A stretch of 64,000 nucleotides of DNA, taken from NCBI RefSeq assembly GCF_009914755.1, contig NC_060947.1; one strand, given 5' to 3'. The notes below the pieces were generated by a model. The model did not search any database. It saw only the letters and a list, made by a program, of their open reading frames with translations, and had not been told where the DNA came from. The translations under genes and the position numbers were made by a program. This DNA comes from the human T2T-CHM13v2.0 reference genome, Homo sapiens. Positions 1 to 56,058 of this stretch are shown here, piece after piece; within the stretch, counting starts at the first letter, position 1; each line of letters opens with the position of its first letter.

Positions 1-523
1 CACTCAGGAAATTGGTGGCTCAGAACAGGAAGCTTGTCTCATGTAATCGAATAGTGCTGGAGGAATCCAAAGCCTTCGTGTGCTGCAACATGAAGAGGGA
101 TCTGGAACAGGCCAACGAGAGAACATGTGAAGTACTGAAGAAAATCTGGGGTTCTGCCCAAGGGTTGGACTCCATGTGAAAGGACTTAGAAAGGAAGATG
201 AACGAGTTTCGAGTGTCAGGCTGCACACTGACCACATGGGGATCCGGCTGAGAAGAACACCATTGCTTCCACCTGTCCTTATCCATTCTCACAGCCTGAG
301 ACAAGCTCACTGGTAGCTTATGCTTCCAAGCAGGACTAGGAACATTCACGGTATTTATTCGGGAGTACTGACTCCGGAAAGTACAGGAAGCTTGGACTGC
401 TCGGCGCCATTGGTAGGGTCTTCCGTGGTGCACTTGGCCTTATTTATTTTTTACGACATTTGACAGAGGGCAGAGAGAGAGCAAGCATTAAAACGGCAGA
501 AGCTACTGGAAACGTCGTGAGCA

Positions 524-629
524 ATCTACAGTCATACCACCGTCAACGCTCCCAATCTTGCCTGGTCTCTGAAGTACAGAGTAGATGCAATTGGGCCCAG
601 GTTCGGGCCTGTTTCATTGTTGGATAGAA
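524..629 (+). pseudogene. 3'-truncated 5S rRNA retrocopy (S-unit copy 1)
   Basis: atctacagtcataccaccgtcaacgctcccaatct...gttcgggcctgtttcattgttggatagaa aligns to 5S nt ~1-88, with a 22-nt fold-back insert and a flanking degenerate TSD. Confidence 0.85.
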
Positions 630-1308
630 GGAACTTCCTGAATGCTTTGTTCAGCTTAAGCTGCGTATTGTTGAAGCACTCAATGGCCCAGCCATTCGAC
701 TAGGAGCATCCGTATTGCCTCTTTGTGATATGGTTTAGGCTAATGAAAAGACTTGGTTTCCAACACCCTCTTCTACCTCTGGGCAGATTCCAGATAGCTG
801 ATCTACCATTACGTTTCCGAAATCATGGGACGATCAGCTGCAAGCGAGACGATGCTCAGTGGGTTGAAACTGATCACACAGGAGGCATTTGGCAACGGCC
901 TTCTCTCCCAGCTGTTTGGATCCTGGACCTTCACTCAGGAAATTGGTGGCTCAGATCAAGAAGCTTGTCTCATGTAATCGAATAGTGCTGGAGGAATCCA
1001 ACACCTTGGTGTGCTGCAACATGAAGAGGGATCTAGAACAGGCCAACGAGAGAACATGTGAAGTACTGAAGAAAATCTGGGGTTCTGCCCAAGGGTTGGA
1101 CTCCATGTGAAAGGACTTAGAAAGGAAGATGAATGAGTTTCGAGTGTCAGGCTGCACACTGACCACATCGGGATCCAGCTGAGAAGAACACCATTGCTTC
1201 CGGCTGTCCTTCTTCATTCTCACAGCCTGAAACAAGCTCACTGGTAGCTTATGCTTGTAAGCAGGAGCGGGAACATTCACGCTATTTATTCGGGAGTACT
1301 CTGGATAA

Positions 1309-1384
1309 ATCATCCCATTATTTCGGAAATGTAATGCTAGGTCAGGTATCTGGAATCTTCCTGGAGGTAGAAGAGGGTATTGGA
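1309..1384 (-). repeat. 76-nt inverted copy of the unit's own sequence (also at 3285-3360, 5262-5337, 6307-6382)
   Basis: atcgtcccattatttcggaaatgtaatgctaggtcaggtatctggaatcttcctggaggtagaagagggtattgga (copy at 5262) is the reverse complement of 759-834 with 9 differences in 76 nt. Confidence 0.95.
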
Positions 1385-1567
1385 TGGAAGGAACTTCGTG
1401 AATGCGGTCATTGAACTCCAGAAAGTACACCAACCTTGTACTGCTCAGGGCCTTAGGTAGGGTCTTCTGTGGCGCACTTGACCTTATTTATGTTTTACAA
1501 CGTTTGACAGAGGACAGAAAGAGAGCAAGCATTAAAAGGGCAAAAGCTACCAGAAACATCGTGAACA

Positions 1568-1673
1568 ATCTACAGCCATACCACCGTGAACGCTCCCAAT
1601 CTCGTCTGGCCTCTGAAGTACAGAGTAGAGGAGATTGGGCCCAGGTAGGGGCCTGTTTCATAGTTGGATGGAA
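1568..1673 (+). pseudogene. 3'-truncated 5S rRNA retrocopy (L-unit copy 1)
   Basis: ATCTACAGCCATACCACCGTGAACGCTCCCAATCTCGTCTGGCCTCTGAAG matches 43/51 to human 5S GTCTACGGCCATACCACCCTGAACGCGCCCGATCTCGTCTGATCTCGGAAG. After the insert, CCAGGTAGGGGCCTGTTTCATAGTTGGATGGAA matches 24/33 to 5S nt 56-88. Confidence 0.9.
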
Positions 1674-2499
1674 GGAACTTTGTGAATGCTATCATTTAAC
1701 TTAAGCTGTCTATTACTAAACCAGTCAGCCGCCCAGCCATTCGACTAGGAGCATCCGTATTGCCTCTTTGTGATATGGTTTAGGCTAATGAAAAGACTTG
1801 GTTTCCAACACCCTCTTCTACCTCTGAGCAGATCCCACATAGCTGATCTACCATTACGTTTCCGAAATCATGGGACGACCAGCTGCAAGCGAGACGATGC
1901 TCACTGGGTTGAAACTGATCACTCAGGAGGCAGTTGGCAACGGCCTTCTCTCCCAGCTGTTTGGGTCCTGGACCTTCACTCAGGAAATTGGTGGCTCAGA
2001 TCAAGAAGCTTGTCTCATGTAATCGAATAGTGCTGGAGGAATCCAAAGCCTTGGTGTGCTGCAACATGAAGAGGCATCTGGAACAGGCCAACGAGAGAAC
2101 ATGTGAAGTACTGAAGAAAATCTGGGGTTCTGCCCAAGGGTTGGACTCCATGGGAAAGGACTTAGAAAGGAAGATGAATGAGTTTCGAGTGTCAGGCTGC
2201 ACACTGACCACATCGGGTTCCGGCTGAGAAGAACACCATTGCTTCCATCTGTCCTTATCCATTCTCACAGCCTGAAACAAGCTCACTGGTAGCTTATGCT
2301 TGCAAGCAGGACTGGGAACATTCAGGCTATTTATTCGGGAGTACTGACTCCAGAAAGTACAGCAACCTTGGACTGCTCAGCGCCATTGGTACGGTCTTCG
2401 GTGGTGCACTTGGCCTTATTTATTTTTTACGACATTTGACAGAGGACAGAGAGAGAGCAAGCATTAAAACGGCAGAAGCTACTGGAAACGTCGTGAACA

Positions 2500-2605
2500 A
2501 TCTACAGTCATACCACCGTGAACGCTCCCAATCTTGTCTGGTCTCTGAAGTACAGAGTAGATGTGATTGGGTCCAGGTTCGGGCCTGTTTCATTGTTGGA
2601 TAGAA
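2500..2605 (+). pseudogene. 3'-truncated 5S rRNA retrocopy (S-unit copy 2)
   Basis: Same element as 524-629, one 1976-bp dimer period downstream. Confidence 0.85.
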
Positions 2606-3543
2606 GGAACTTTCTGAATGCTTTGTTCCGCTTAAGCTGCGTATTGTTGAAGCACTCAATGGCCCAGCCATTCGACTAGGAGCATCCGTATTGCCTCTTT
2701 GTGATATGGTTTAGGCTAATGAAAAGACTTGGTTTCCAACACCCTCTTCTACCTCTGGGCAGATTCCAGATAGCTGATCTACCATTACGTTTCCGAAATC
2801 ATGGGACGATCAGCTGCAAGCGAGACGATGCTCAGTGGGTTGAAACTGATCACACAGGAGGCATTTGGCAACGGCTTTCTCTCCCAGCTGTTTGGATCCT
2901 GGACCTTCACTCAGGAAATTGGTGGCTCAGATCAAGAAGCTTGTCTCATGTAATCGAATAGTGCTGGAGGAATCCAAAGCCTTGGTGTGCTGCAACATGA
3001 AGAGGGATCTGGAACAGGCCAACGAGAGAACATGTGAAGTACTGAAGAAAATCTGGGGTTCTGCCCAAGGGTTGGACTCCATGTGAAAGGATTTAGAAAG
3101 GAAGATGAACGAGTTTCGAGTGTCAGGCTGCACAGTGACCACATCGGGTTCCAGCTGAGAAGAACACCATTGCTTCCGGGTGTCCTTATCCATTCTCACA
3201 GCCTGAAACAAGCTCACTGGTAGCTTATGCTTGTAAGCAGGACCGGGAACATTCACGCTATTTATTCGGGAGTACTCTGGATAAATCGTTCCATTATTTC
3301 GGAAATGTAATGCTAGGTCAGGTATCTGGAATCTTCCTGGAGGTAGAAGAGGGTATTGGATGGAAGGAACTTCGTGAATGCGATCATTGAACTCCAGAAA
3401 GTACACCAAGCTTGTACTGCTCGGGGCCTTAGGTAGGGTCTTCTGTGGCGCACTTGACCTTATTTATGTTTTACAACGTTTGACAGAGGACAGAAAGAGA
3501 GCAAGCATTAAAAGGGCAAAAGCTACCAGAAACATCGTGAACA

Positions 3544-3649
3544 ATCTACAGCCATACCACCGTGAACGCTCCCAATCTCGTCTGGCCTCTGAAGTACAGA
3601 GTAGAGGAGATTGGGCCCAGGTAGGGGCCTGTTTCATAGTTGGATGGAA
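3544..3649 (+). pseudogene. 3'-truncated 5S rRNA retrocopy (L-unit copy 2)
   Basis: Same element as 1568-1673. Confidence 0.9.
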
Positions 3650-4475
3650 GGAACTTTGTGAATGCTATCATTTAACTTAAGCTGTCTATTACTAAACCAG
3701 TCAGCCGCCCAGCCATTCGACTAGGAGCATCCGTATTTCCTCTTTGTGATATGGTTTAGGCTGATGAAAAGACTTGGTTTCCAACACCCTCTTCTACCTC
3801 TGGGCAGATTCCAGATAGCTGATCTACCATTACGTTTCCGAAATCATGGGACGACCAGCTGCAAGTGAGACGATGCTCAGTGGGTTGAAACTGATCACAC
3901 AGGAGGCATTTGGCAACGGCCTTCTCTCCCAGCTGTTTGGATCCTGGACCTTCACTCAGGAAATTGGTGGCTCAGATCAAGAAGCTTGTCTCATGTAATC
4001 GAATAGTGCTGGAGGAATCCAAAGCCTTGGTGTGCTGCAACATGAAGACGGATCTGGAACAGGCCAACGAGAGAACATGTGAAGTACTGAAGAAAATCTG
4101 GGGTTCTGCCCAAGGGTTGGACTCCATGTGAAAGGACTTAGAAAGGAAGATGAACGAGTTTTGAGTGTCAGGCTGCACACTGACCACATCGGGTTCCGGC
4201 TGAGAAGAACACCATTGCTTCCATCTGTCCTTATCCATTCTCACAGCCTGAGACAAGCTCACTGGTAGCTTATGCTTGCAAGCAGGACTGGGAACATTCA
4301 CGCTATTTATTCGGGAGTACTGACTCCAGAAAGTACAGCAACCTTGGACTGCTCAGCGCCATTGGTACGGTCTTCCGTGGTGCACTTGGCCTTATTTATT
4401 TTTTACGACATTTGACAGAGGACAGAGAGAGAGCAAGCATTAAAACGGCAGAAGCTACTGGAAACGTCGTGAACA

Positions 4476-4581
4476 ATCTACAGTCATACCACCGTGAACG
4501 CTCCCAATCTTGTCTGGTCTCTGAAGTACAGAGTAGATGCGATTGGGTCCAGGTTCGGGCCTGTTTCATTGTTGGATAGAA
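4476..4581 (+). pseudogene. 3'-truncated 5S rRNA retrocopy (S-unit copy 3)
   Basis: Same element as 524-629. Confidence 0.85.
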
Positions 4582-5520
4582 GGAACTTCCTGAATGCTAT
4601 TGTTCAGCTTAAGCTGCGTATTGTTGAAGCACTCAATGGCCCAGCCATTCGACTAGGAGCATCCGTATTGCCTCTTTGTGATATGGTTTAGGCTAATGAA
4701 AAGACTTGGTTTCCAACACCCTCTTCTACCTCTGGGCAGATTCCAGATAGCTGATCTACCATTACGTTTCCGAAATCATGGGACGACCAGCTGCAAGTGA
4801 GACGATGCTCAGTGGGTTGAAACTGATCACACAGGAGGCATTTGGCAACGGCCTTCTCTCCCAGCTGTTTGGATCCTGGACCTTCACTCAGGAAATTGGT
4901 GGCTCAGATCAAGAAGCTTGTCTCATGTAATCGAATATTGCTGGAGGAATCCAAAGCCTTGGTGTGCTGCAACATGAAGAGGGATCTGGAACAGGCCAAC
5001 GAGAGAACATGTGAAGTACTGAAGAAAATCTGGGGTTCTGCCCGAGGGTTGGACTCCATGTGAAAGGACTTAGAAAGGAAGATGAACGAGTTTCGAGTGT
5101 CAGGCTGCACACTGACCACACGGGGTTCCGGCTGAGAAGAACACCATTGCTTCCACCTGTCCTTATCCATTCTCACAGCCTGAGACAAGCTCACTGGTAG
5201 CTTATGCTTCCAAGCAGGACTAGGAACATTCACGCTATTTATTCGGGAGTACTCTGGATAAATCGTCCCATTATTTCGGAAATGTAATGCTAGGTCAGGT
5301 ATCTGGAATCTTCCTGGAGGTAGAAGAGGGTATTGGATGGAAGGAACTTCATGAATGCGATCATTGAACTCCAGAAAGTACACCAACCTTGTACCGCTCA
5401 GGGCCTTAGGTAGGGTCTTCTGTGGTGCACTTGACCTTATTTATGTTTTACAACGTTTGTCAGAGGACAGAAAGAGAACAAGCATTAAAAGGGCAAAAGC
5501 TACCAGAAACATCGTGAACA

Positions 5521-5626
5521 ACCTACACCCATACCACTGTGAACGCTCCCAATCTCGTCTGGCCTCTGATGTACAGAGTAGAGGAGATTGGGCCCAGGTA
5601 GGGGCCTGTTTCATAGTTGGATGGAA
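5521..5626 (+). pseudogene. 3'-truncated 5S rRNA retrocopy (L-unit copy 3, more diverged)
   Basis: acctacacccataccactgtgaacgctcccaatctcgtctgg..., a variant of 1568-1673. Confidence 0.87.
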
Positions 5627-6565
5627 GGAACTTTGTGAATGCTATCATTTAACTTAAGCTGTCTATTACTAAAGCAGTCAACAGCCCAGCCGTTCGACTA
5701 GGAGCACCCATATTGCCTCTTTGTGATATGGTTTTGGCTAATGAAAAGACTTGGTTTCCAACACCCTCTTCTACCTCTGGGCAGATTCCAGATAGCTGAT
5801 CTACCATTACGTTTCCGAAATCATGGGACGACCAGCTGCAAGCGAGACGATGCTCAGTGGTTTGAAACTGATCACACAGGAGGCATTTGGCAACGGCCTT
5901 CTCTCCCAGCTGTTTGGATCCTGGACCTTCACTCAGGAAATTGGTGGCTCAGATCAAGAAGCTTGTCTCATGTAATCGAATAGTGCTGGAGGAATCCAAA
6001 GCCTTGGTGTGCTGCAACATGAAGAGGGATCTGGAACAGGCCAACGAGAGAACATGTGAAGTACTGAAGAAAATCTGGGGTTCTGCCCAAGGGTTGGACT
6101 CCATGTGAAAGGACTTAGAAAGGAAGATGAATGAGTTTCGAGTGTCAGGCTGCACACTGACCACATCGGGTTCCAGCTGAGAAGAACACCATTGCTTCCG
6201 GCTGTCCTTATCCATTCTCACAGCCTGAAACAAGCTCACTGGTAGCTTATGCTTGCAAGCAGGACCGAGAACATTCACGCTATTTATTCGGGAGTACTCT
6301 GAATAAATCGTCCCATTATTTCGGAAATGTAATGCTAGGTCAGGTATCTGGAATCTTCCTGGAGGTAGAAGAGGGTATTGGATGGAAGGAACTTCGTGAA
6401 TGCGATCATTGAACTCCAGAAAGTACACCAACCTTGTACTGCTCAGGGCCTTAGGTAGGGTCTTCTGTGGCGCACTTGACCTTATTTATGTTTTACAACG
6501 TTTGACAGAGGACAGAAAGAGAGCAAGCATTAAAAGGGCAAAAGCTACCAGAAACATCGTGAACA

Positions 6566-6671
6566 ATCTACAGCCATACCACCGTGAACGCTCCCAATCT
6601 CGTCTGGCCTCTGAAGTACAGAGTAGAGGAGATTGGGCCCAGGTAGGGGCCTGTTTCATAGTTGAATGGAA
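6566..6671 (+). pseudogene. 3'-truncated 5S rRNA retrocopy (L-unit copy 4)
   Basis: Same element as 1568-1673. Confidence 0.9.
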
Positions 6672-8645
6672 GGAACTTTGTGAATGCTATCATTTAACTT
6701 AAGCTGTCTATTACTAAACCAGTCAGCCGCCCAGCCATTCGACTAGGAGCATCCGTATTGCCTCTTTGTGATATGGTTTAGGCTAATGAAAAGACTTGGT
6801 TTCCAACACCCTCTTCTACCTCTGAGCAGATCCCACATAGCTGATCTACCATTACGTTTCCGAAATCATGGGACGACCAGCTGCAAGCGAGACGATGCTC
6901 AGTGGGTTGAAACTGATCACTCAGGAGGCATTTGGCAACGGCCTTCTCTCCCAGCTGTTTGAGTCCTGGACCTTCACTCAGGAAATTGGTGGCTCAGATC
7001 AAGAAGCTTGTCTCATGTAATCGAATAGTGCTGAAGGAATCCAAAGCCTTGGTGTGCTGCAACATGAAGAGGGATCTGGAACAGGCCAACGAGAGAACAT
7101 GTGAAGTACTGCAGAAAATCTGGGGCTCTGCTCAAGGGTTGGACTCCATGTGAAAGTACTTACACAGGAAGATGAATGAGTTTCGAGTGTCAGGCTGCAC
7201 ACTGACCGCACCGGGTTCCGGCTGAGAAGAACACCATTGCTTCCAGCTGTCCTTATCCATTGTCACAGCCTGAGTCATGCTCGCTGGTAGCTCACGTGTG
7301 GAAGCAGGACTCGGAAAATCCACGCTATGTATTATCGAGTAGTTTGAAAGTACTGTAGCTTTAAAATAAAATAAAATCACTTAAAATAAAATGAAATACT
7401 ACAATGCTTTTCTGTCTAAGCATCAGTATTTTATAGTCATATACACACAACTATAACAGTTTAATGGTGATCACAGGATTGCTCTTAGAAGCTCTAATTT
7501 CTCTTGTCTTTGGCTAGTACTGTATAAAACCAGAAGTGTGTTTTATTGATTTTGGTGACAGAAAAATCTGAAATAATGTTTGTTTTGGTCATGTTTTCCT
7601 TCTAGAACAGAGAATCTAAAGGGGTATTAGCCCGCCTCACCTCCCCTGTCCTACATAGAGACACAGAGTCATCTGAGGCATTGGCTTTTTCTCCAAGTAG
7701 GTACCGATACCTCAGATTCGGGAAATTCCAAATCAAAAATAAGACTTAGCTTCTACAACAAATACTTCTGATGAAACATTCACTGAGGAGCATACTCCTA
7801 AACCAGACATATGTTTAAGATTCATGCTGAGATATCAGTTGGTTTCCCCTTCCTTTTAAAATACATCCAGTTCTTACCCAGTTACTATAAGCAAAGCAAT
7901 GTCTCTAGAAGAAAGCTTTCTTTGCAGTATTAGTGAAGCACTGAATAGCTTAAGTTTGAATATCTAGGTTACAAGTTAGTCTTTGGCGGGTTTTAAATAG
8001 TTTTTTGACCCTTTTGAAATATAACTATATGAGTGCTTCTTGTTGCTGGGTGAGAAATGCTACTTTATATACAGTTTTGGTTTTCGTTTTGCAGATATGA
8101 TTGATGTATTACACCACAATAAAGTATTTTTATGTTTACATAGTGTAATTTTTAGGTTCACTTAGAATACATTTTATTTAATAAATTAAAATTATTTCGG
8201 TACACTATTAAATGCAAAATCTCCTTTCCAAACAAAAAAGAACTACCTTATATTCGTCATTGAATGTTCTTGGTCTGTGCTTTTATGTTTATATAATATG
8301 GTGAATTCAGTATGGTGTCCAAGTGTGCCCTGCGTTGATAGACACGTGCCTTCCTTCCAGGAGTGGGTACTGACTCCAGACTCCAGATCCCTATTTCTAG
8401 TTAGGCTTCTGAGCTTGCAATCATATTGAATGTATGATGAGCAAAATAAAATCAAAACCTTATTTTTGTACATTTTTGAAATATATACTTAGAACTGACC
8501 ACCTCCCTGGCCCCATGGAGAGCTGTATCGTGTGTAAAGCCGCCTTTACCTTGATTCATGCAGTGTTTTTGCATCTGTGGGACCTACCTTTTCGTTCATT
8601 AGTTTGAACTATACATAAACTGTACGATCTGTAAAGTTTTTATAT

Positions 8646-8712
8646 AATAAATATTCACCTGTGAAAACTGGTTAAATAAAACTAATATTTCTTACACACG
8701 CACACACAAAAA
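8646..8712 (+). terminator. Poly(A) signals and decayed poly(A) tail of the CDYL retrocopy
   Basis: AATAAA at 8646 and 8675, followed by ...cttacacacgcacacacaaaaaa. Confidence 0.75.
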
Positions 8713-10215
8713 AGCATTCCACAATGGGCATGACAAAAAGTCCCTCTTTCAGAAAGATGCTTCTGCAGTAGAAGTTGGCTACCTTGATGCAATGACATGG
8801 CCAGTTCTGATCCTCTAATTTGTTTGGGATGCTTCTGCTACATTTTCAAATGACTTCAGTCAGTGGTTCCCACAAATGAAATATTTGCCAGACAAGACGT
8901 TGTTGCATTTCTGTGACTTTTACATTTATTAAACAATTGCTTCCTCCTCCCAGGGTAATAGCCTCCAATCTCCCCACTTTTTCAAAACATTATTGACAAT
9001 TTTTCTACCATATGTTGACACTGTGTTTCAATTCTCGTATCATTTATTCCCTAGGGCACAATTGGTTCTGCTATGACAATCTCCAGGGTAAGGATTCAAT
9101 TGTACAAGGTTATGTGAGCTTGCAAATGAAGGAGACAGAGAGAGAGAGAGAGAGAAAAAAAAAAAGGAAAAGGTGGAGGAGGGAAGGAGGGGACAAGAGG
9201 GGGAGAGAGAGAAAGTACAAATGGGAGACCTCAACTCTAGCCATTAAAAATGGTGGTTCTAAAAATCCACCACACAGTCAGAACTCAGCTTTTTACATGT
9301 GCTCACATCCATACAGAAAAGACATGTTTTGTGTTTTTCCTAGTGAATTCTTGGCAAATACTGTCAGTTGTGAAATACAAGATGGGGAACTCTTTCTCTG
9401 AAAACGTAGCCGGGGAAAAATGATGCAGTTAGGTGGAGAAATAGCTGCCTTGAAAAACAAGTTTCCTTGAGTTGATGAAACACTAGAGGAGAGAAGAGGT
9501 CCCCTTGCATGTCTTCCCCATCTCTGTGTTTATTTGCTGATCCAAACTGATTACTGTTAAAATATGCATGCCAGCATTTCATTTTCAACAAATGCTACTC
9601 CAAGTATTCATTAGCGTCTTATCCACTGTCTCTAAAATAATCTACAGTGGCCTGAATAGCTGTAGAATGACAGGAGAAAGATTGCAAGGCGACGTGCATG
9701 GGGGCCCTGAGGGCAAGGCACAGCTTGCTGGCTCCGTGGTAAGGGGTGGGTACTTGGCATCAGCCCCTCAGCAGAGAGGGCAGGACTGGGTGTAGCAAGT
9801 GACTCACAGAAAATGCATTACCCCATTGAAATGTCACCAGAATTGAATTGAAATGTCACCAAAGAAGCTCATGGGGTGAGAAATTGCCATGTGCTTTAAA
9901 AAATAATTATTATTAAATCCAACTAAAGCATGTACATAATTGAATCTGAGGTACTAGCAATCCTTGTTCCATCTTTCTTCACCCCCATCCTCCACCCCAG
10001 GAGCAACAACTTTCCACTCCATTCTGTTCCTTCTAGAATTTTCCTCTATATTTCTAAATAATTTTCATATACTGTTATTTCTCAATTTATTAATTTTAGT
10101 CATTTTTATCAACTTCTGTTATGATACTGGAGGGTTTTTCTGGCCTAACTACCCCAGTTTGCCTTGACCCATCCCCTCAATTTGGATACTATGAGTTAAA
10201 AAAAAAATTAATCGT

Positions 10216-10514
10216 CTTTTTTTTTTTTTTTTAAAGACAGGGTCTCACTTCACTGCCCAGGCTGAAGTACAGTGGCACAATCACGGCTCGCTGCAGCTTC
10301 AACCTCCTGGGCCCAAGTGATCCTCCCACCTCAGCCTCCCAAGTAGCTAGGACTAAAGACACACTCCACCAAACTCAGCTAATTTTTAAAACTTTATAGA
10401 GAAGGGGTCTCACTTTGTTGCCCAATCTGGTCTTGAACTCCTGGCCTCAAGCAATCCTCCCACCTAGGCCTCCCAAAGCACTAGGATTACAGGCATGACC
10501 CACCACACCTGGCC
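10216..10514 (-). mobile_element. AluJ-like SINE
   Basis: Poly-T followed by agacagggtctcact...ggattacaggcatgacccaccacacctggcc. Confidence 0.9.
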
Positions 10515-11202
10515 CCTAATACAGTCTTTCTGTTATTATAGCTTAATATGCTCTCTGTTGATCCACGTGGCAAACTATGACTGCATTTCCTTTCTTGTAC
10601 AACTCTGAGTATTTTCTGGGATTAATAACTGTCTCATGTAATTGCTTAGTTTTCTAGAGATGTTCTCTGATTTTTTTCCAAATGCTTTCCCCAAATGCTC
10701 ACACACATTAAATAACCTAACTCGCCCATGTCTCCACCCAAACACTGCCACTGAGAGCCATGTGTCCTCCTGCTCTGCAATATACCAGTTTAGCTTTAAA
10801 CCCAGCACACGGCTAGTGTCCTAAAATACCCCAACCTCTTTCCAGCATGGGACCTTGTCTCCTGGTTTCCTTGTCTTCCTCCCTTCCTGGTTTACTATTT
10901 TGTGTTGCTGAAATACATTCCCTAGTAGCTCCTACAGAGACGTGTACAGGAGAGATATATTTTTCATCCTTGCACATTTAACAACCTGTTAACTTTGCCC
11001 TCATCACTCTGCCCGAGTGAGTGCTCTCTGCACTGCACCCTCCTCAGAAATTTACCATTGCTCCACTTCCCCCGCAGTATTAGCCCTAAGGAACCTGCCG
11101 CCTTTGAACTGTCAGGTGTGGCCTGTTTGCCTCTGTAGAAACTTTTAGCCTAGTGCTGACCAAAGTCAATCGCAATTTTCTTTCTTTTTTTTTTTAACTT
11201 AA

Positions 11203-11849
<647 letters not shown>

Positions 11850-11855
11850 CCATCC

Positions 11856-12115
11856 TCAATTTTCTAATAGACATAATTTAAATGGTAAAAAGAAAGAAGT
11901 GGAATTCGTTTTAATAATGTATTTTATTTAATCCAGTATATTTAAAAATGCTATCATTTCAAGCTGCAATCAATATGAAAATTTTCGGTGAGACATTTTA
12001 CTATGCCTTTGTTATCATGAGTGTATTTCACACTCTCAGCACGTCTCAGTGTGGACCTGTCATGTGCTCAGAGCTCCACAGCCACTGGAGCCGACAGCCG
12101 CTACATGACTGTGTA
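11856..12115 (+). mobile_element. MER33-like hAT-Charlie DNA transposon relic
   Basis: taaaaagaaagaagtggaattcgttttaataatgtattttatttaatccagtatat...atcatttcaagctgcaatcaatatgaaaatt resembles the recalled MER33 consensus. Confidence 0.7.
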
Positions 12116-12611
12116 GTTCTACAGCCTTCTGTCCATCCCTGGTGCTCTGGGGTGCCCACAGTGGTCCTCATTGGCATTTAATCTCTGTGCTTGTGCTTGT
12201 GCTGTGTCCCTCCAGAATCTTTCCAGAATCATGCCTCCTATGCCGTCATTGCTAAAGTCCCCCTCTGGGACCAGAGGTCCTCCTGGTGAGGCCACGGCTT
12301 CTGAACGCCATGGGCATTTGGGGTTCCCACACACCTTGTCACACCTAAAGCCACAAGAGTCCTGGTGCTCAAGTGCTCGAGTGCAGAAGAGGGACTTAAG
12401 GACTGCAGCCCGCCAACCTTCCCAGCAGGTGTCGGTCACACCAGGTCATGTCACTGCCGAGGATTTCTCAGGTCCCCAGGGCATGGCCTGAGATTCTTGG
12501 AATCCTGCAGGATTTCTTAGGGTTTCAACATTTCCTGCTAAAGAACCAACAATTCCTGGAAGGGGCGACGCTTCAGCCTTTATTGAGCAACGTGCAAAAA
12601 GAAAACTGGTG

Positions 12612-12746
12612 GGCCAGGTGCAGTGGCACATGCCTGTAATCCCAGCACTTTGGGAGGCCGAGGCGGGAGGACTGCTTGAGCGCTTAGAGTATGAGACCAG
12701 CGTGGGCAATATAGTGAGACCCTGTCTCTACAAAAATAAATAAATA
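12612..12746 (+). mobile_element. FLAM/Alu left monomer
   Basis: ggccaggtgcagtggcacatgcctgtaatcccagc...gaccctgtctctacaaaaataaa with no right arm. Confidence 0.85.
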
Positions 12747-13109
12747 AGAAGAAGACTGGCTTACAGCCAGCAGAGACGAGACCTTGCCTCAGTGGGCCTC
12801 AGGCGTGGGGAACTGGGCTCAGGCAGGGAGAGGGATTGGAGAGACAGAGGGTGAGGAGAGAGGAATACAGGGCACACCTTGTCTCTTTCCCATGTCGCTG
12901 AAGACATCAAGGACTCTCTCTCTCTCTCTCTCCTCATGCCCCTCCTTCCCTTCATCCCCCTCTCCCACCAACGTCTCTCTCTTCCAGGTTCCCAGGAGGC
13001 TTAAGGAGAATATAATCCCTTTACGTCTGCTTAGGAGGCAAAAGATTCCTCCCTCGTATTTGTCATCTTAAAACAACAGCCAAGAGCATGCCCCCTATGC
13101 ATTTGTCAA

Positions 13110-13290
13110 ATAGCGTTTGCCATCAGCTGGACACTTCCACACCCTTCTACAAGAATGACCTCATTGACTCCCCGTAACAACCCTAAAGAAGACATTGTTT
13201 CTGTCCCTATTTTACAGATGAGGAAACTGAGGCCCAGGGACGGTCAGGGGGTAGCCAGGTTGTGTCCCTGGGGGCGGTTCCAAACTTCAT
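13110..13290 (-). mobile_element. MIR SINE relic
   Basis: MIR core ctattttacagatgaggaaactgaggcccag. Confidence 0.8.
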
Positions 13291-14689
13291 GCTCTCACCG
13301 TGAGTGGCAGCTTCCTGTCTCTGTGGGGTGCCTGCACAATTAGGGGCAGAGTCAGACATGTTTGGGCGTTTTGCCATGAAATGGTTTACTCTGAAATAAA
13401 GAAAGTCTGTGGGTGTTGGACTGAATTTTGCAGAGTGGATTTAAATCCAGACTTTCGCAGAGTGGATTTAAACCAGAGATTGAGAGCAAGTTCTTAGTTC
13501 TAAATGCTCCTGCCAGCTTCCATCCTGACCAGAAATGAAAGCCTGGTGCTGAGACCGGCCCCCAGCCCCCTGCCGTAATCACCCTGAGTCTAGTTCCCTT
13601 CACTCACCCCCACCCCGCCAGTACCCCCAGGGAAAGTCAGCCAAAGGCAGGAGAACATATCTAACCTCTGTCCAGTAACACCTTCAAATGTGAAACTCCC
13701 ACTTAATTATGTTGCCATTACATTTTAGTCCATCCTGTCTTTCAACTGTGAACACATTTTATTTTTTCCTTCCTGCCTTACTCAACTTTCCTGCTTTCAG
13801 GGTTTGAATTTCAAACCTGTGCATGTTTCTTGCTAGGTGCCAGCAAGCTCATAACTAATGAGATCTAAGGAATTTGGACTCCACTAATTTGCATTACGGG
13901 ATGGTTTTGACAGAAGCTGGCAATATCGAACCTTTGCTGCACGAAAAAAAGGCTTGCTAATCATTTTAATGGCGTAAACATGGCAGGTCATGGAGCCATG
14001 TGATTGTTTACATACATGTAAACAGTTCATGCTGTTTTCTACTTGCTCTTTTGTACACAGTATCTGCTCTTCGGTTTTCGGGACTCTCAGTGCAGCTACC
14101 TCATCCTTGGGTAACTTGAGTGTCCTTTTGCTTTTTGCTTTGTTGTTACATTTGCATTTGACCTGTTATTGTGTCCCAGAAAGCATCTTGCAGGCCACAC
14201 CGACCCGAGAATGGGTAAATATGTTCTGTTTTCGTCTCTTAAAACCCTACGCGTCTGGCATTTCAGAAGCTGCGCGATGTTAGATCCTTTATGTAACAAC
14301 CAACCCTAGGTGGAGAGACTGCTAAAACAGGAAAAAGGTTTTCTGAATCAATGAGCAAAACCTTGCTGTGAATTTCCTAAAGATGGCACAGACAGGATAA
14401 ATACATACTCCCAACTTGGAAACAGGGACATTTGAGGCAAAGCCTCCAGCACTAGGAATACATATTCCAGTCAGAGAAAAAGAACTGGTAATTGCCAATC
14501 TGTACATGAGCTGTGAGGGGAGTCCCCATGCAATGACACTGCAATCACCTTTGAACTAACTGTCAGGAAATAAATAAATAACGGAATGTGGCTTTTGAGT
14601 TTTAGTATAATGTTTCAATAACCATCTACGAATAATTAGCTGATTCAGGACAAGTGTTTTCAAAAGTGTATTAAAATATAGCTCTGATC

Positions 14690-15015
<326 letters not shown>

Positions 15016-15376
15016 TCAATTAATTGGCACAAATTCTCCTTCGACAAAGCTAATGAATCGTTTTTCATGCATTAGTAAATATTACATAACTAGAAATTGT
15101 GTCTTCCCTTACTGTGGTGCTGATATTGTTAGCATGCATCCAAAAATGTGACCTTGGATATTCCAGATATATTGTTGGATTCTAGCATAGTAATTATTAT
15201 CTCATTTTACTGGGTTGTTTTTTTTTCCTCCAAGCTTCCCCCGAAAAGTGCTATACTAATTAGGAATTATTCTCATTTGTTCATTAAAGCAAGCCCTCAA
15301 AAGATATCCTTAAGATCATGATTTATTAACCGAAACCAGATTATTATATGTTCCCAGCTTAATAAAAGTATAATTA

Positions 15377-16161
15377 GGCCAGGCACAGTGGCTCACACCT
15401 GTAATCCCAACACTGTGAGAGGCCAAGGAGGGTGGATTGCTCAAGCCCAGGAGTTGGAGACCAGCCTGGGGAACACAGCAAAACCCCATCTCTACTAAAA
15501 ATAAAAAAAAATTAGCTGAGCATGGTAGAGCACCTGTAGTCCCAGCTACTCAGGAGACTGAGGTGGGAGGATTGCTTGAGTCCAGGAGTTCGAGAACGGC
15601 ATGGGCAACATAGCGAGACCCCCATCTCTTCAAAAAAATTTAAAAATTGGGCCAGGCAGCCCAGGTGGCTCATGCCTGTAATCCCAGCACTTTGGGAGGC
15701 TGAGGTAGGCAGATCACTTGAGGACAGGAGTTTGAGACTCTTCAAGGCTGCAGTGAGCTGTGATCATACCACTGCATTCCAGCCTGGGTGACACAGTAAG
15801 ACCCTGTCGAAAAAAAAAAAGAAAAAAAAACACTACAATTTTTCTTTAAATATTTTATTTATTTATTTATTTATTGAGACAGGGTCTTGCTCTGTCACCC
15901 AGGCTGGAGCGCAGTGGTGCAATCACAGCTCACTGCAGCCTCGACCTCCCAGGACCAAGAGATCCTCCACCTCAGCCTCCTGTATAGCTAAGACTACAGC
16001 CATGTGCCACCACACTCAGCTAATTTTTTATTTATTTATTTTGTAGATACGGGGTCTTGCTATGTTGCCCATACTGGTCTCGAACTCCTGGGCTCAAGCA
16101 ATCCTCCTGCTTCAGCCTCCCAAAGTGTTGGGATTACAGGTATGAACCATCACACCCAGCC
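15377..16161. mobile_element. Alu cluster (AluJ-like + strand pieces 15377-15830; - strand 15855-16161)
   Basis: Alu motifs in both orientations, tail to tail. Confidence 0.88.
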
Positions 16162-16177
16162 ATTCTCTATTTTTCTG

Positions 16178-16905
16178 AATTTTTTTATTGTGATAAAATA
16201 TATATAACATAAAAATTGCCCTTTTGGCCATTTCTAAATGTTCTGTTCATGATGTTGATCACATTTATGATGTTGTACAATTATCACCACCACCTGTCTC
16301 CAGAACTTTCTCCTTTTCCCAAACTGAAACTCTGTCCCCGCTAAGCAATAACTCCTCATGCCTTCCTCCTGCAGCCTCTGGTAACCTCTAATGCATTTTC
16401 TGTCTCTGATTCTGCCCATTCTAGATATTTCATAGAAGTGCAATCATACGCTATCTGTCCTTTTGCATCTGGCTTATTTCATCTAACCCAATACTTTCAA
16501 AGTTCATCCATGTTGCAATATGACTCAGAACTTCATTCTTTTTTAAGGCTGAATAATATTCCATTGTATGGATATGCCACCTTTTGTTTATCCATTCACT
16601 TGGGCTGCTTCTACCTTTTGGCTATGGTAAACGACCCTGCGATGAACACTGGTGTGTAAGTATGTGTTTGGGTTCTTGCGTTCAATCCTGCAGTGTATAC
16701 TACAAAGACGAATTGCTGGATCATTTGGTAATTCTACGTTTAACTCCTTGAGGAACTGCCCAGCTCTTTCAGCAGCTGCTGCACTGTGTTACATTGCAAT
16801 TGGCCATGTGTGAGTGTTCCAATTTCTCCACATCCTCACCAACACTTGTTATTTTCTGTTGGTTGTTTGGTTGGTTGTTTAATTTTAGCCATCCTAGTAG
16901 GAATG
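16178..16905 (-). mobile_element. Old L1 (L1M-type) 3' end fragment
   Basis: tttttaaggctgaataatattccattgtatggatatgccac...ccaatttctccacatcctcaccaacacttgtt, typical L1M antisense. Confidence 0.85.
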
Positions 16906-17576
16906 AGCAACACTCACTCTTGATAGAAAAACACATTGAAGATCTAATTTTGGTGCTGCAGAGAACAGGGGGACTGGGTGATTAGGAAGCAAAAGAAGCC
17001 TCTGGGAAGGAGGAGTAGAGAAGTGAGGGGTTAGAAGGAAAATGACATGGGACAGGGATCATAAACTGTGCACTGGGTTTATGTTATCATTAGCCTTTCC
17101 AGAATATGGAGGCCTGGCCTATATCCCTCAATCAGGGTCTATATACCAACAGGAAGAAATGCACATGTGGATCTCTTTCACCTTACAATGCTCTGAGTAG
17201 AGCAAGATAACTCAGAGGGAAAAAGGCTATTTTCTGCTTAACTGACATTACTATCCGATAAGCCCTAGTCTCTGAGCAACACAGGGGGCCGTAAATTCAT
17301 TAGGAATACTGTTCCTACAAACTTGTTCAACCTGTAGCCAGAAACATCCAAGTTTAAAAAAAAAAAATAGGTGTAGTATACTGCATAGCATGTTGTGTAT
17401 CACATGTAGTCACCATTGAGGATATTTACCTAGTGGTCTTTTTCCTTTGTTACTACAATAGACAATTAAATGATAAACACTTTTATATCTTTAAGACATA
17501 TAAATAGAAAAAAAATCAAGGGGATTTGGGTATTTTTCATTATATTTGTGTGTTTATGATAAAAAACACATAACTG

Positions 17577-17996
17577 GGCCAGACACAGTGGCCCATGCCT
17601 ATATTCCCAGCACTTTGAGAGGCCGATCTGGGAAGATGGCTTGAGCTCAGGAGTTAGAGACAAGCCTAGGCAACATAGGGAGACCCCATCTCTACAAAAC
17701 AACTTAAAAATTAGGTAAGCATGATGATGCATGCCTGTAGTCCCAGCTACCTGGGAGCCTGAGGTGGGAGGATTGCCTGAGTCCGGGAGTTCAAGACCAG
17801 CCTGGGCAAAATGGCAAAACTCCACCTTTACAAAAACTACAAAATTAGTCAGGTATGGTGGCACAGGCCTGTAATCCAAGCTACTCAGGAGGCTGAGGTG
17901 AGAGGATCACTTGAGTCCAGGAGGCTGAGGCTGCAGTGAGCTGTGATTGTGCCACTGCTCTCTAGCCTGGACAGAGCAAGACCCTGTCTTAAACAA
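17577..17996 (+). mobile_element. AluJ-like SINE(s), partially duplicated
   Basis: Alu left and right arm motifs, with an extra right-arm segment. Confidence 0.85.
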
Positions 17997-18049
17997 ACAA
18001 AAGTCACCCAGGGGGTAAACATCAGAGCCTGATCTTTAAAATGATATAT

Positions 18050-18659
18050 TGTGTGGTTGAAATGTTAAAAACCAACCACACCAAGTGTTGGTGAGGATGT
18101 GGGGAAACTGGAAATCTCATACACAGTTAGTACAAATGTAAAATGATACAACCATTTTGTTGGTTTTTTTTTTATCGCTTCACAAAGTTTGTTTCTGAAA
18201 GAGTTAAAACATATATCTATAATAGGATCCAGCCTTTCCAGTTATAGATACTTATCCAAGAGAAATAGCATAGTTCCATACAAAAACTGATAAGCAAATG
18301 CTCATAGCAGCTCTATTTGTAATAGCTGGAAACTGTAAAAACCATAAACAATCCAAATGTCCATCAATAGATGAACAGAGAAACAAACCATAATGCAACA
18401 TACAGTGGAATACTACTCAGCAATAAAAAGGAATCGATGACCGATACATGAAACAGCATGAATGAATCTCAAAATTATCACCCTTAGTGAAAGAAAAAAT
18501 CCAGACAAAAAAGAATACAGACTGTCTAACTCCATTCATATAAACTCAAGATAATGTGGCAGGAAGCAGACCAGTGGTTACTTGGGAATAGAAGAATGGG
18601 GAAGGGCTGGAGGGAGGGGTTACAAAGGGCTTGAGGAAATGTTTAGAAGTGATAAGAAT

Positions 18660-18660
<1 letters not shown>
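18050..18660 (+). mobile_element. Old L1 fragment
   Basis: gtgttggtgaggatgtggggaaactggaaatctcatacac...caaatgtccatcaatagatgaa...ggaatactactcagcaataaaaagg. Confidence 0.85.
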
Positions 18661-20175
<1,515 letters not shown>

Positions 20176-55599: not shown

Positions 55600-56058
55600 A
55601 GCTAGGAGGCTGGTTGGCTGCGCAGCTACTCCAGAGTGTGCGGTAGCCGAGGGCTGCGTCCGCGTAAAGCCCAGAGCTGTAATGATGTCAACTTGTTATT
55701 TACTTTCCAAATCTGAATGACTGAGCAAGGCGAAAGGAGAATCAATCAACCACAATGTGACCCTACAGGCGGAAAAAACGCAGCACTCCCACCAGCAGGC
55801 GGTGGGGGAAGGGAAGCACGTGTAGCCAGGGCAGGGTTGCATCATGAGCTCGTTCGGGTTTTCTATTGCACCCTTCGTTTTTCTATTGCATGTAATACCT
55901 CAGCATCAGTCTGCACAAGCCCAGGGAGCCCAGGAGCAACGAAGGGCAGGCTCAAGGGAAGGCCCCACCATGTCCTTCTGGGGGGCCTTGAATGGCAACT
56001 GATACATAATAAGACACAATCTATTCTGCTGATTCACAATTATGGAGACTGTGTAAGT
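55600..56058 (+). promoter_or_regulatory. TBL1X: Upstream promoter and candidate non-coding alternative first exon (donor after 56052), probably TBL1X
   Basis: Repeat-free, locally CpG-enriched; CTCF-like ccaccagcaggcgg at ~55789; E-box cacgtg at ~55817; donor TGT|GTAAGT at 56053. The gene assignment rests on recalled sequence and the ~2-kb spacing of first exons. Confidence 0.55.

What the first reader, a model, noticed from the sequence alone, without database searches (positions are those of the whole stretch)
1..8712. CDYL-retrocopy x 5S-rRNA chimeric tandem array with built-in fold-back structure: candidate hairpin-RNA/small-RNA locus
Seen: a ~1-kb unit built from CDYL coding sequence and proximal 3'UTR has been amplified at least 7 times. 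It contains a 5S retrocopy, two short hairpins and (in L units) a 76-nt inverted self-copy, and the array ends in an intact 3'UTR with poly(A) signals. Known: pseudogene-derived inverted repeats yield endo-siRNAs in mammalian germ cells; Drosophila hpRNAs silence sex-linked drive genes; the Y-linked testis CDY family is itself a CDYL retrocopy. Inference: if this is Xp22, it is an X-linked amplified, self-complementary CDYL-family array that could make dsRNA/siRNA/piRNA acting on CDYL/CDY or on itself, with copy number setting the dose. I cannot tell from the sequence whether it is transcribed or already described.
Basis: partly seen in the sequence, partly recalled or inferred. Interest (0 to 1): 0.9.

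Follow-up and report, generated by a model that had tools for sequence, protein, structure and literature searches.

The report
Amplified dead CDYL retrocopy with 5S insert
This is a tandem array on human Xp22.31, already catalogued, made by amplifying part of a dead CDYL retrocopy that carries a broken 5S rRNA insert; its built-in fold-backs look like rearrangement scars rather than a small-RNA device.

Summary
Units of 931 bp (S) and 1045 bp (L) repeat head to tail. The window holds only the last 7.3 kb of an array of about 25.8 kb with 26 units (window -18441 to +7348).

The unit is an internal piece of one intron-less CDYL retrocopy: four CDYL exons plus the proximal 3'UTR. It is interrupted by a 106-nt, 3'-truncated, tail-less 5S rRNA retropseudogene. 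That insert is flanked by a 15-nt target-site duplication that begins at a spliced exon junction.

The L units (11 of 25 full units) carry a patch of about 114 nt. It consists of a 75-76-nt inverted copy of exon B joined, through 5 nt of microhomology, to a direct copy of the 5S end.

Stems fold in silico on both strands. However, the arms differ at 10 of 76 fixed sites, with independent CpG decay on each arm. They are no better conserved than neighbouring sequence. Their 21-mers have at least 3-5 mismatches to CDYL.

The retrocopy is sister to CDYL, not to Y-linked CDY, and no Y homologue of the flank was found.

Warburton et al. 2008 already list the array (Xp22.31, 1.9-kb unit, "5sRNA", copy-number variable). 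RefSeq annotates a pseudogene and an antisense lncRNA over it.

Verdict: an ordinary, fast-evolving pseudogene VNTR. A small-RNA role is untested, and the sequence gives it no support.

The parts
1..7348 (+). Right-hand 7.3 kb of a ~25.8-kb tandem array (full extent window -18441..7348; 26 units). Unit starts in the window are 1, 932, 1977, 2908, 3953, 4885, 5930 and 6975; the last unit is partial and more diverged.
3545..3650 (+). One of 7 in-window copies of the 106-nt 5S rRNA-derived piece. It covers 5S nt 2 to ~89, is 3'-truncated and has no A tail. The other copies start at 525, 1569, 2501, 4477, 5522 and 6567.
3530..3544 (+). Upstream copy of the 15-nt target-site duplication. It is the first 15 nt of CDYL exon B and directly follows the exon A end, i.e. 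the spliced junction.
3651..3665 (+). Downstream copy of the 15-nt target-site duplication. Exon B continues from here.
3571..3615 (+). Short hairpin inside the 5S piece. The ~19-nt 'extra' segment is an inverted copy of the adjacent 5S bases (13-nt arms, 92%).
3277..3390 (+). L-unit patch of ~114 nt: 9 nt of unclear origin, then a 75-nt inverted copy of exon B, then a 36-nt direct copy of the 5S end, TSD and exon B start. The two copies overlap by 5 nt (TTGGA). Patches with the same structure contain the inverted arms at 1309-1384, 5262-5337 and 6307-6382.
3780..3854 (+). Forward arm (CDYL exon B segment) that pairs with the inverted patch. It is present in every unit; the in-window copies are 759, 1804, 2735, 3780, 4712, 5757 and 6802.
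6425..6551 (+). CDYL exon A homologue in the last full unit (C6:4806623-4806749, 81%).
6671..7022 (+). CDYL exon B (C6:4812555-4812768) and exon C (C6:4821275-4821413) homologues, joined without an intron.
7028..8698 (+). CDYL last exon: end of the CDS plus the whole 3'UTR (C6:4822907-4824553, 85.3%). From 7349 onward it is single-copy. AATAAA lies at 8646 and 8675.
8699..8712 (+). Degenerate CA/A-rich remnant of the poly(A) tail. Homology to the parent stops here, at the parent's 3' end.
2407..7075 (-). Terminal exon of the RefSeq-predicted lncRNA LOC107985634, antisense to the CDYL orientation. The acceptor is CAG. The model ends about 12 nt after a minus-strand AATAAA (2424-2419) that recurs in every unit.
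   Evidence: hub annotation
7164..7358 (-). Penultimate exon of the same lncRNA model. Its GTAAGT donor was created in the diverged edge unit.
   Evidence: hub annotation

Best explanation
A single CDYL mRNA was retrotransposed into Xp22.31, giving an intron-less, now disabled copy. Its 5' part lies at window -19551/-19401..-18441 and its 3'UTR tail at 7349-8712.

Later, a 3'-truncated, tail-less 5S rRNA copy was inserted by the L1 machinery into the retrocopy's coding region. This duplicated 15 nt of target.

Still later, an internal segment of ~0.93 kb was tandemly amplified by unequal exchange. The segment runs from exon A through the 5S piece, exons B and C and the last exon, to about 190 nt of 3'UTR.

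One unit acquired a ~114-nt template-switch patch (an inverted exon B piece joined to a direct copy of the 5S end). That L variant spread, so S and L units now form SL and SSL higher-order repeats.

The array is a copy-number-variable, fast-evolving pseudogene VNTR. The 5S pieces are not genes. The fold-backs are structural by-products. The array is transcribed passively as the 3' exon of an antisense lncRNA that starts about 29 kb away.

Shown: the anatomy, the order of events, the genealogy, and the lack of arm maintenance. Inferred: neutrality and passive transcription.
For: - Retrocopy: colinear, intron-less mapping to CDYL exons on chr6 for the 3' half and the 5' half (89%, 87%, 83%). Homology stops at the parent's 3' end, followed by an A-rich remnant. 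CDYL-like peptide stretches lie in different frames broken by stops.
- 5S insertion after retroposition: the parent's first 15 nt of exon B occur on both sides of the 5S piece in all 26 copies, and the upstream copy follows the spliced exon A/B junction. The chr3 CDYL retrocopy has the junction without any 5S.
- Known class for the 5S piece: it is 3'-truncated with no A tail, matching the class of 555 human 5S tail-less retropseudogenes described in PMC5322556 (abstract and passages).
- Not a 5S gene: no Rfam hit at E<=10, against 113.8 bits for a true 5S gene. The first T run of 4 or more lies 615 nt downstream.
- 5S insertion before amplification: every unit has it, and the diverged left edge keeps an older 5S version without the 19-nt inverted insertion (read from the printed sequence).
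- Patch structure: an inverted 75 nt and a direct 36 nt overlap by 5 nt.
- No maintenance of pairing: 10 of 76 fixed differences, both arms decayed independently at a shared CpG, and the inverted arm keeps a parental base that the forward arm lost. Arm diversity is 0.024, against neighbours at 0.029 and 0.012.
- Genealogy: (chr3,(X,CDYL)) with support 97/96, and a separate CDY clade at 100/100.
- Copy-number variation: 10.1 kb and 5 x 1.9 kb in hg18 with CNV '+' (PMC2588610 Table 2A), against 25.8 kb here.
Against: - Neutrality is inferred, not shown. No expression, small-RNA, methylation or cross-species data could be examined.
- The stems do fold strongly in silico on both strands, and the annotated lncRNA exon 2407-7075 contains both arms of three L units.
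- CpG observed/expected in the array (0.47) is higher than in the flanks (0.29-0.35). Units carry 11-14 CpGs absent from the parent. This could hint at germline hypomethylation or activity.
- Array units are about twice as diverged from the parent as the single-copy parts of the same retrocopy. Plain neutral decay does not predict this, so it needs an added assumption: array-associated mutagenesis or turnover.
- RefSeq lists a screen-derived 'silencer' at 7072-7277 (hub annotation).
- No convincing target-site duplication was found for the CDYL retrocopy itself.
Confidence: 0.8

Rival explanations
1. Hairpin-RNA or small-RNA locus. Transcripts through L units fold into ~76-bp stems that are diced into siRNAs or fed into the piRNA pathway. 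These act on CDYL/CDY or on the array itself, with dose set by copy number.
For: - Inverted arms occur in 11 of 25 full units.
- Predicted stems have z-scores of -7.2 and -8.9.
- A predicted spliced, polyadenylated lncRNA covers three L units (hub annotation).
- A 30-nt exact match to the CDYL 3'UTR is present in 8 units. It lies outside the stems.
Against: - The stem has 65 of 76 Watson-Crick pairs, and its longest perfect run is 15 bp.
- The arms carry 10 fixed differences with no compensatory pattern and are not preferentially conserved.
- Stem 21-mers have at least 3-5 mismatches to CDYL exon B.
- The longest exact match to the functional CDY loci is 16 nt.
- From general knowledge (recalled): human somatic and male germ cells process long imperfect hairpins poorly. 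Inverted Alu pairs with far longer arms are common, including in this window (one search lists dozens of ~300-nt Alu matches in both orientations).
- No miRNA family hit in 1-9000.
Confidence: 0.06
2. Regulatory VNTR or antisense lncRNA. The array acts in cis on TBL1X (49 kb away), for example as a silencer or chromatin element. Alternatively, its antisense transcript pairs with CDYL mRNA in trans.
For: - RefSeq lists a silencer at 7072-7277 (hub annotation).
- The lncRNA terminal exon is antisense to the CDYL sense strand over ~650 nt per unit, at about 78-82% identity.
- One preprint lists LOC107985634 among the top fold-change genes in two brain regions (10.1101/2025.09.25.677871, one passage).
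- The array is copy-number variable.
Against: - The array is not a CpG island (GC 0.475, CpG o/e 0.47).
- No CTCF-like core motif lies in the array at up to 1 mismatch. The motif was recalled from memory. The whole window gave 1 hit, at 12422, against 0.63 expected.
- About 80% identity is poor for stable trans pairing.
- Screen-derived silencer calls are not locus-specific evidence.
- No paper links the array to TBL1X (3 of 3 papers unrelated, judged from title and abstract start).
Confidence: 0.1
3. An array of 5S rRNA genes, one per unit, as the heading of Warburton's Table 2A would suggest.
For: [quoted passage not shown] The first 50 nt are 88% identical to true 5S.
Against: - Truncated at about nt 89 of 119 and carries a 19-nt internal inverted insertion.
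- Fails the Rfam 5S model even at E<=10.
- No nearby T-run terminator.
- It is flanked by a target-site duplication inside a pseudogene.
Confidence: 0.01
4. X-linked gametolog or antagonist of the Y-linked CDY family: a shared retroposition before X-Y divergence, followed by sex-chromosome conflict.
For: Same parent gene family. Amplified on a sex chromosome, next to TBL1X; from general knowledge (recalled), TBL1X has a Y homologue.
Against: - The tree puts the X copy with CDYL (97/96) and outside the CDY clade (100/100).
- Identity to CDY is 66-73%, against 78-89% to CDYL.
- No chrY hit covers the flank 8712-10200.
- No chrY hit spans the 5S/CDYL junction.
Confidence: 0.02

Closest known systems
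Xp22.31 '5sRNA' tandem array of Warburton et al. 2008 (BMC Genomics 9:533, PMC2588610, Table 2A)
   Same: Same locus. The hg18 interval chrX:9,331,977-9,342,069 has a 1.9-kb unit (the S+L pair seen here) at >95% identity and is flagged copy-number variable. The identification rests on band, unit size, content and my recalled hg18 position of TBL1X (~49 kb from the interval's end, as here).
   Different: [quoted passage not shown] It does not mention the CDYL origin, the target-site duplication, the S/L structure or the inverted patch, and it files the array as one gene per unit. The 5S piece is a truncated pseudogene. CHM13 has 25.8 kb rather than 10.1 kb.
Tail-less 5S rRNA retropseudogenes (Noll et al. 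2015, PMC5322556; abstract and passages read)
   Same: 5'-complete, 3'-truncated 5S copy without an oligo(A) tail, flanked by a 15-nt target-site duplication.
   Different: Here the insertion landed inside a processed pseudogene and was then co-amplified 26-fold. Its truncation point (about nt 89) was not compared with the paper's hotspot figure, which is not held.
CDY gene family on the Y chromosome (retrocopies of CDYL; recalled from the literature, not read here)
   Same: Intron-less copies of the same parent gene, amplified on a sex chromosome.
   Different: This is an independent and later retroposition. It is non-coding and disabled. What is amplified is an internal fragment, not a whole gene.
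Drosophila hpRNA loci and mouse-oocyte pseudogene-derived endo-siRNA hairpins (recalled)
   Same: Gene-derived inverted repeat within a transcribed region.
   Different: Those stems are long and near-perfect, and match their targets closely. Here the stem is 76 bp with 9-11 mismatches and no 21-mer match to the parent. No small RNAs are known.
X-linked macrosatellites such as DXZ4 and CT47 (recalled; DXZ4 abstracts seen)
   Same: Polymorphic tandem arrays on the X with higher-order structure.
   Different: The unit is ~1 kb rather than 3-5 kb. It is not CpG-island-like, has no CTCF-like motif and contains no intact gene.

Membership tests
Processed pseudogene (retrocopy) of CDYL | Colinear match to two or more parent exons with introns absent | tested here: met
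   Seven chr6 exon blocks are joined without introns.
Processed pseudogene (retrocopy) of CDYL | Ends at the parent's polyadenylation site with an A-rich tail | tested here: met
   Homology stops at C6:4824553, after the AATAAA signals. The X copy continues with a CA/A-rich remnant.
Processed pseudogene (retrocopy) of CDYL | Flanking target-site duplication | tested here: inconclusive
   The only shared word is an 11-mer at -19634 and 8748, and it is not adjacent to the tail.
Processed pseudogene (retrocopy) of CDYL | Closest relative is CDYL rather than CDY | tested here: met
   Tree support 97/96. PDB CDYL scores 86.9 bits against CDY at 70-72 bits.
Tail-less 5S retropseudogene | Significant similarity to 5S rRNA starting at its 5' end | tested here: met
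   5S nt 2 onward; score 87-91 against a shuffle maximum of 36; 44 of 50 identical at the start.
Tail-less 5S retropseudogene | 3' truncation without oligo(A), plus a target-site duplication | tested here: met
   Ends at about nt 89, directly abutting the 15-nt duplicated target, in 26 of 26 copies.
Functional 5S rRNA gene | Reaches the Rfam RF00001 gathering score (38 bits); full length | tested here: not met
   No hit at E<=10. The control 5S gene scores 113.8 bits.
Tandem-repeat VNTR or macrosatellite | Head-to-tail units with higher-order structure | tested here: met
   26 units in SL and SSL patterns.
Tandem-repeat VNTR or macrosatellite | Copy number varies between individuals | tested here: inconclusive
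   10.1 kb in hg18 with CNV '+' against 25.8 kb in this assembly. Collapse in the older assembly cannot be excluded.
hpRNA / endo-siRNA locus | Long, near-perfect inverted repeat within one transcript | tested here: inconclusive
   Both arms lie within the predicted exon 2407-7075, but the stem is only 76 bp with 65 Watson-Crick pairs and a longest perfect run of 15.
hpRNA / endo-siRNA locus | Stem-derived 21-mers match a target gene | tested here: not met
   At least 3 (forward arm) or 5 (inverted arm) mismatches to CDYL exon B.
hpRNA / endo-siRNA locus | Small RNAs of defined size map to the stem | not testable with these tools
CTCF-bound CpG-rich macrosatellite (DXZ4 type) | CpG-island composition and CTCF motif in each unit | tested here: not met
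   GC 0.475 and CpG o/e 0.47. No motif hit in the array; the motif was recalled from memory.

The most novel reading that the evidence does not exclude
The antisense lncRNA's terminal exon carries several 76-bp fold-backs and 26 copies of CDYL-antisense sequence. In germ cells or brain it could be processed into small RNAs, or heavily A-to-I edited. That would make the copy-number-variable array a dose-setting modulator of CDYL or of local chromatin. The doubled substitution rate and the excess of new CpGs inside the array would then reflect germline activity rather than passive decay.
Probability: 0.05. Interest if true: 0.6.

Novelty: already known. Interest (0 to 1): 0.18.

Why it matters
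There is little functional significance. The locus is a clean, datable example of layered events: mRNA retroposition, then a tail-less 5S retro-insertion, then a template-switch patch, then tandem amplification.

The report corrects a catalogue entry that files it as an array of 5S genes.

One by-product may be useful. The same retrocopy offers single-copy and arrayed parts of identical age, and the arrayed part is about twice as diverged from the parent. This is an internal control for how much faster tandem arrays accumulate substitutions.

If the small-RNA reading were ever confirmed, it would be a rare human analogue of hpRNA loci. Nothing here points that way.

Tried and rejected
- Tandem Repeats Finder missed the array because its longest period is 500.
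- Rfam gave no 5S hit at E<=0.1 over 1-12000 or at E<=10 over 1-2100. Its only hits were Alu-derived (SRP and mir families at 10232-11848) plus two chance lncRNA motifs. I established 5S identity instead with a genuine 5S gene fetched from chr1.
- I first suspected an L1 template-switch chimera (5S fused to the 3' part of CDYL mRNA). I rejected this because CDYL exon A lies upstream of the 5S piece and a 15-nt target duplication flanks it.
- I looked for a 5S-derived exon in the CDYL intron. No chr6:4.81 Mb hit appeared among the 5S-part matches. This is a weak negative, because only the best candidates are scored.
- One search listed no chrX rows at all, not even the array itself, so it says nothing about other X copies.
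- The target-site duplication of the CDYL retrocopy was not found convincingly.
- The exact 3'UTR/exon A amplification junction could not be resolved to the base. It lies between ...GGAGT and ...AAAGTAC.
- GC-biased gene conversion was rejected as the sole cause of the extra divergence. W>S and S>W rates are both about doubled.
- Literature: LOC442443 gave 0 papers. LOC107985634 gave 1 paper, mentioned in passing. CDYL with pseudogene, tandem repeat, 5S rRNA and Xp22 gave 15 of 298 listed, none on this locus by title and abstract start. Macrosatellite with TBL1X gave 3 papers, unrelated by title and abstract start. CDYL with retrocopy, X-linked and tandem array gave 2 papers, unrelated by title and abstract start. 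CDYL with pseudogene, piRNA, endo-siRNA and hairpin gave 12 of 1,002 listed, none on this locus by title and abstract start.
- In the main text of the T2T repeat preprint, 5SRNA_Comp refers to chr1, and there is no mention of CDYL, chrX or Xp22. Its supplements are closed and may list this array.
- Brahmachary et al. 2014 (PMC4063668) contains none of CDYL, Xp22, TBL1X or chrX in its main text.

Full report
OBSERVATION

The repeat is real. A direct-repeat search finds 8 in-register copies with start-to-start spacings of 931, 1045, 931, 1045, 932, 1045 and 1045 bp. Self-BLAST shows S+L pairs 97.3% identical over 4322 nt, S versus L units 92-94%, and a more diverged partial last unit (90.7%). 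Homology ends at 7341-7348. Tandem Repeats Finder missed the array only because its period ceiling is 500.

The window cuts the array. With the 30 kb upstream fetched from the same assembly, the array runs from window -18441 to +7348, about 25.8 kb. It contains 26 copies of the 5S-derived piece, giving 25 spacings of which 14 are short and 11 long. Units are arranged as SSL triplets on the left and SL pairs on the right, ending in LL.

WHAT THE UNIT IS MADE OF

The recurring open frame matches the C-terminal part of human CDYL in the PDB (2gtr_A, E 5.5e-24). This is better than CDY2 or CDY1 (about 1e-19). A search of the whole assembly shows that the unit matches separate places on chr6, the CDY copies on chrY, and a retrocopy on chr3.

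The last unit plus the tail maps colinearly and without introns to CDYL:
- Exon A: C6:4806623-4806749.
- Exon B: C6:4812555-4812768.
- Exon C: C6:4821275-4821413.
- Last exon with its whole 3'UTR: C6:4822907-4824553, 85.3% over 1683 columns.

The 5' half of the same retrocopy lies just left of the array. Window -19401..-18738 matches a large CDYL exon at 89%, followed by two further exons at 87% and 83%. This agrees with the start of the RefSeq pseudogene LOC442443 at -19402 (hub annotation). Homology to the chr3 retrocopy starts about 150 nt further upstream, at -19551.

Homology to the parent stops at the parent's 3' end, after AATAAA at 8646 and 8675, and a CA/A-rich remnant follows. CDYL-like peptide stretches sit in different frames broken by stops.

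So this is one dead, processed CDYL pseudogene whose internal ~0.93 kb has been amplified. The amplified segment runs from just upstream of exon A to about 190 nt into the 3'UTR.

THE 5S PIECE

Rfam does not call it, at E<=0.1 over 12 kb or at E<=10 over 2.1 kb. I therefore took a genuine 5S gene from the chr1 cluster that one search had hit, and confirmed it with Rfam (113.8 bits).

The unit matches its first 50 nt at 88%. A local alignment scores 87-91, against a mean of 22 and a maximum of 36 for 200 shuffles.

Base-level inspection shows that the apparent 3' end of that alignment is really CDYL sequence. The first 15 nt of exon B (AAACTTCGTGAATAC in the chr6 parent) occur on both sides of the 5S piece. 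The upstream copy directly follows the end of exon A. This holds in 26 of 26 copies. The chr3 retrocopy has the plain spliced junction and no 5S.

The piece therefore has these properties:
- It covers 5S nt 2 to about 89.
- It is 3'-truncated and has no A tail.
- It is flanked by a 15-nt target-site duplication.

This is the signature of the tail-less 5S retropseudogenes, of which 555 are described in the human genome (PMC5322556, abstract and passages). It was inserted into the already spliced retrocopy, so it is not a template-switch chimera, which was my first guess.

The ~19-nt 'extra' segment inside it is an inverted copy of the adjacent 5S bases (13-nt arms, 92%). The diverged left edge of the array keeps an older 5S version without that segment, together with small partial duplications (my reading of the printed sequence).

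The piece is truncated and internally disrupted, and there is no T run of 4 or more for 615 nt. It is therefore not a 5S gene. Knowledge of the 5S internal promoter is recalled, not tested.

THE L PATCH AND THE FOLD-BACK

L units differ from S units by about 114 nt inserted at the 3'UTR/exon A junction. The patch is made of:
- 9 nt of unclear origin.
- A 75-nt inverted copy of an exon B segment.
- A 36-nt direct copy (33 of 36 identical) of the 5S end, the duplicated target and the first bases of exon B.

The inverted and direct parts overlap by 5 nt (TTGGA), the mark of a microhomology-mediated template switch.

The inverted arm pairs with the forward arm of the same unit (loop 419 nt) or of the previous unit (loop 474-476 nt), at 83-88% complementarity. 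A 601-nt RNA spanning both arms folds with the stem on either strand. The minus strand gives -213.7 kcal/mol (z -7.2). The plus strand gives -233.2 kcal/mol (z -8.9). Each was compared with 20 shuffles.

IS THE FOLD-BACK MAINTAINED OR AIMED AT ANYTHING?

The 11 inverted arms are nearly identical to each other, as are the 26 forward arms. The two classes, however, differ at 10 of 76 fixed positions (6 transitions, 4 transversions). At one ancestral CpG, the forward arm went to TG and the inverted arm to CA. At another site, the inverted arm keeps the parental base that all forward arms have lost. The patch is therefore old, and the arms drifted apart independently.

Other measures:
- Diversity among units is 0.024 in the forward arm. 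The adjacent exon B/C segment is 0.029 and the last-exon CDS 0.012. The 5S and exon A parts are about 0.08. The arm is not specially conserved.
- The stem has 65 of 76 Watson-Crick pairs, rising to 67-70 with G-U pairs, and a longest perfect run of 15 bp.
- Every 21-mer of the forward arm has at least 3 mismatches to CDYL exon B, and every 21-mer of the inverted arm at least 5.
- Outside the stems there are only two exact matches of 20 nt or more to CDYL. One is a 35-mer in the single left-edge copy. The other is a 30-mer of the proximal 3'UTR, present in 8 units.
- Against the sampled CDY loci the longest exact match is 16 nt, or 21 nt to a CDY-like pseudogene at C24:8.77 Mb.

RELATION TO CDY AND THE Y

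A maximum-likelihood tree of the 1.1-kb single-copy 5' part gives (chr3 retrocopy,(X retrocopy, CDYL)) with support 97/96. A separate CDY clade has support 100/100. The X branch is 0.099 and the CDYL branch 0.034 substitutions per site (8 rows, none dropped).

The X copy is thus an independent, later retroposition of CDYL. With recalled neutral rates it is tens of millions of years old. The flank 8712-10200 has no chrY match, and no chrY hit spans the 5S/CDYL junction.

TRANSCRIPTION

The RefSeq-predicted lncRNA LOC107985634 (minus strand, hub annotation) has GT-AG at all three introns. It ends about 12 nt after a minus-strand AATAAA at 2424-2419. That hexamer recurs in every unit, so the annotated 3' end is one of several equivalent choices.

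The terminal exon (2407-7075) is antisense to the CDYL orientation and contains three L patches with their partner arms. One preprint lists the gene among the top fold-change genes in two brain regions (10.1101/2025.09.25.677871, one passage). I could not examine expression or small-RNA data.

PRIOR KNOWLEDGE

Warburton et al. 2008 (PMC2588610) list in Table 2A: 'Xp22.31, 10.1 kb, 1.9-kb unit, 5 copies, >95%, CNV +, 5sRNA, hg18 chrX:9,331,977-9,342,069'. [quoted passage not shown]

The band, the unit size (the S+L pair), the content, and the distance to TBL1X all match. I placed that interval about 49 kb from TBL1X using a recalled hg18 gene position. In this window the array end at 7348 lies 48.5 kb from the TBL1X start at 55885.

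The CDYL origin, the target duplication, the S/L structure and the patch are not mentioned there. They are also absent from everything else I could search. The bioRxiv supplements of the T2T repeat paper are closed and may list the array.

UNEXPLAINED SIDE OBSERVATION

All parts of the retrocopy have the same age. Even so, array units differ from the CDYL parent at 17-18% of non-CpG sites (6 interior units sampled; the edge unit 18.8%). The single-copy 5' part differs at 9.3% and the single-copy 3'UTR tail at 10.4%.

A sliding profile drops from 21-23% inside the last unit to 8-15% in the tail. On the left it rises from 8% to 21% approaching the array. Both W>S and S>W changes are about doubled, so GC-biased conversion alone does not explain it.

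Units also carry 11-14 CpGs absent from the parent, and the array's CpG o/e is 0.47 against 0.29-0.35 in the flanks. The simplest reading is array-associated mutagenesis and turnover, but this was not tested.

VERDICT

The structural interpretation is right. The small-RNA interpretation is unsupported by the sequence and untestable here. The locus is an already catalogued, annotated, copy-number-variable pseudogene array.

Noticed in passing
window -19401..8698 (array 1-7348 versus single-copy parts 7349-8698 and L010/L016): Array units are about twice as diverged from the CDYL parent (17-18% of non-CpG sites) as the single-copy 5' part (9.3%) and 3' tail (10.4%) of the same retrocopy. The drop at the right-hand array edge is sharp; on the left, divergence rises in steps over ~1 kb. 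Both W>S and S>W changes are doubled.
   Followed up: partly
window 1-7348: CpG observed/expected is 0.47 in the array against 0.29-0.35 in the flanks. Each unit has 11-14 CpGs that the parent lacks. This may reflect germline hypomethylation or array turnover.
   Followed up: no
L010/L016, window -18441..-17965: The left edge of the array holds small, diverged partial duplications: exon A end, the duplicated target and the first ~22 nt of 5S. It also holds an older, near-complete 5S copy lacking the 19-nt inverted insertion.
   Followed up: partly
window 359, 448, 1290, 2335, 2424, 3266, 4311, 4400, 5243, 6288 (minus strand): A minus-strand AATAAA recurs once or twice in every unit. The annotated 3' end of lncRNA LOC107985634 at 2407 is therefore only one of many equivalent polyadenylation choices.
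   Followed up: no
window 7152-7163: The GTAAGT splice donor used by the lncRNA model exists only in the diverged edge unit. Interior units read CTAAGT at the same place.
   Followed up: no
L001/L018/L027 (C3:16692082-16695540) and L026 (C2:66070741-66071624): Two other CDYL retrocopies are present. The chr3 copy is older and near full length, without a 5S insert (73-84% identical). The chr2 copy is a 3'UTR fragment, 87% identical to the X tail.
   Followed up: no
L023 (C24:13709518-13712088) and L021 (C24:8771246-8775332): CDY-like pseudogenes on the Y branch basal to the functional CDY copies in the tree.
   Followed up: no
window 10232-11848: Rfam hits to Metazoa_SRP, mir-1268, mir-3135 and mir-1285 all fall below their gathering scores. 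They are ordinary Alu elements, with dozens of Alu matches across the window in both orientations.
   Followed up: no
window 9127-9215: A GA/A-rich low-complexity stretch lies just beyond the retrocopy.
   Followed up: no
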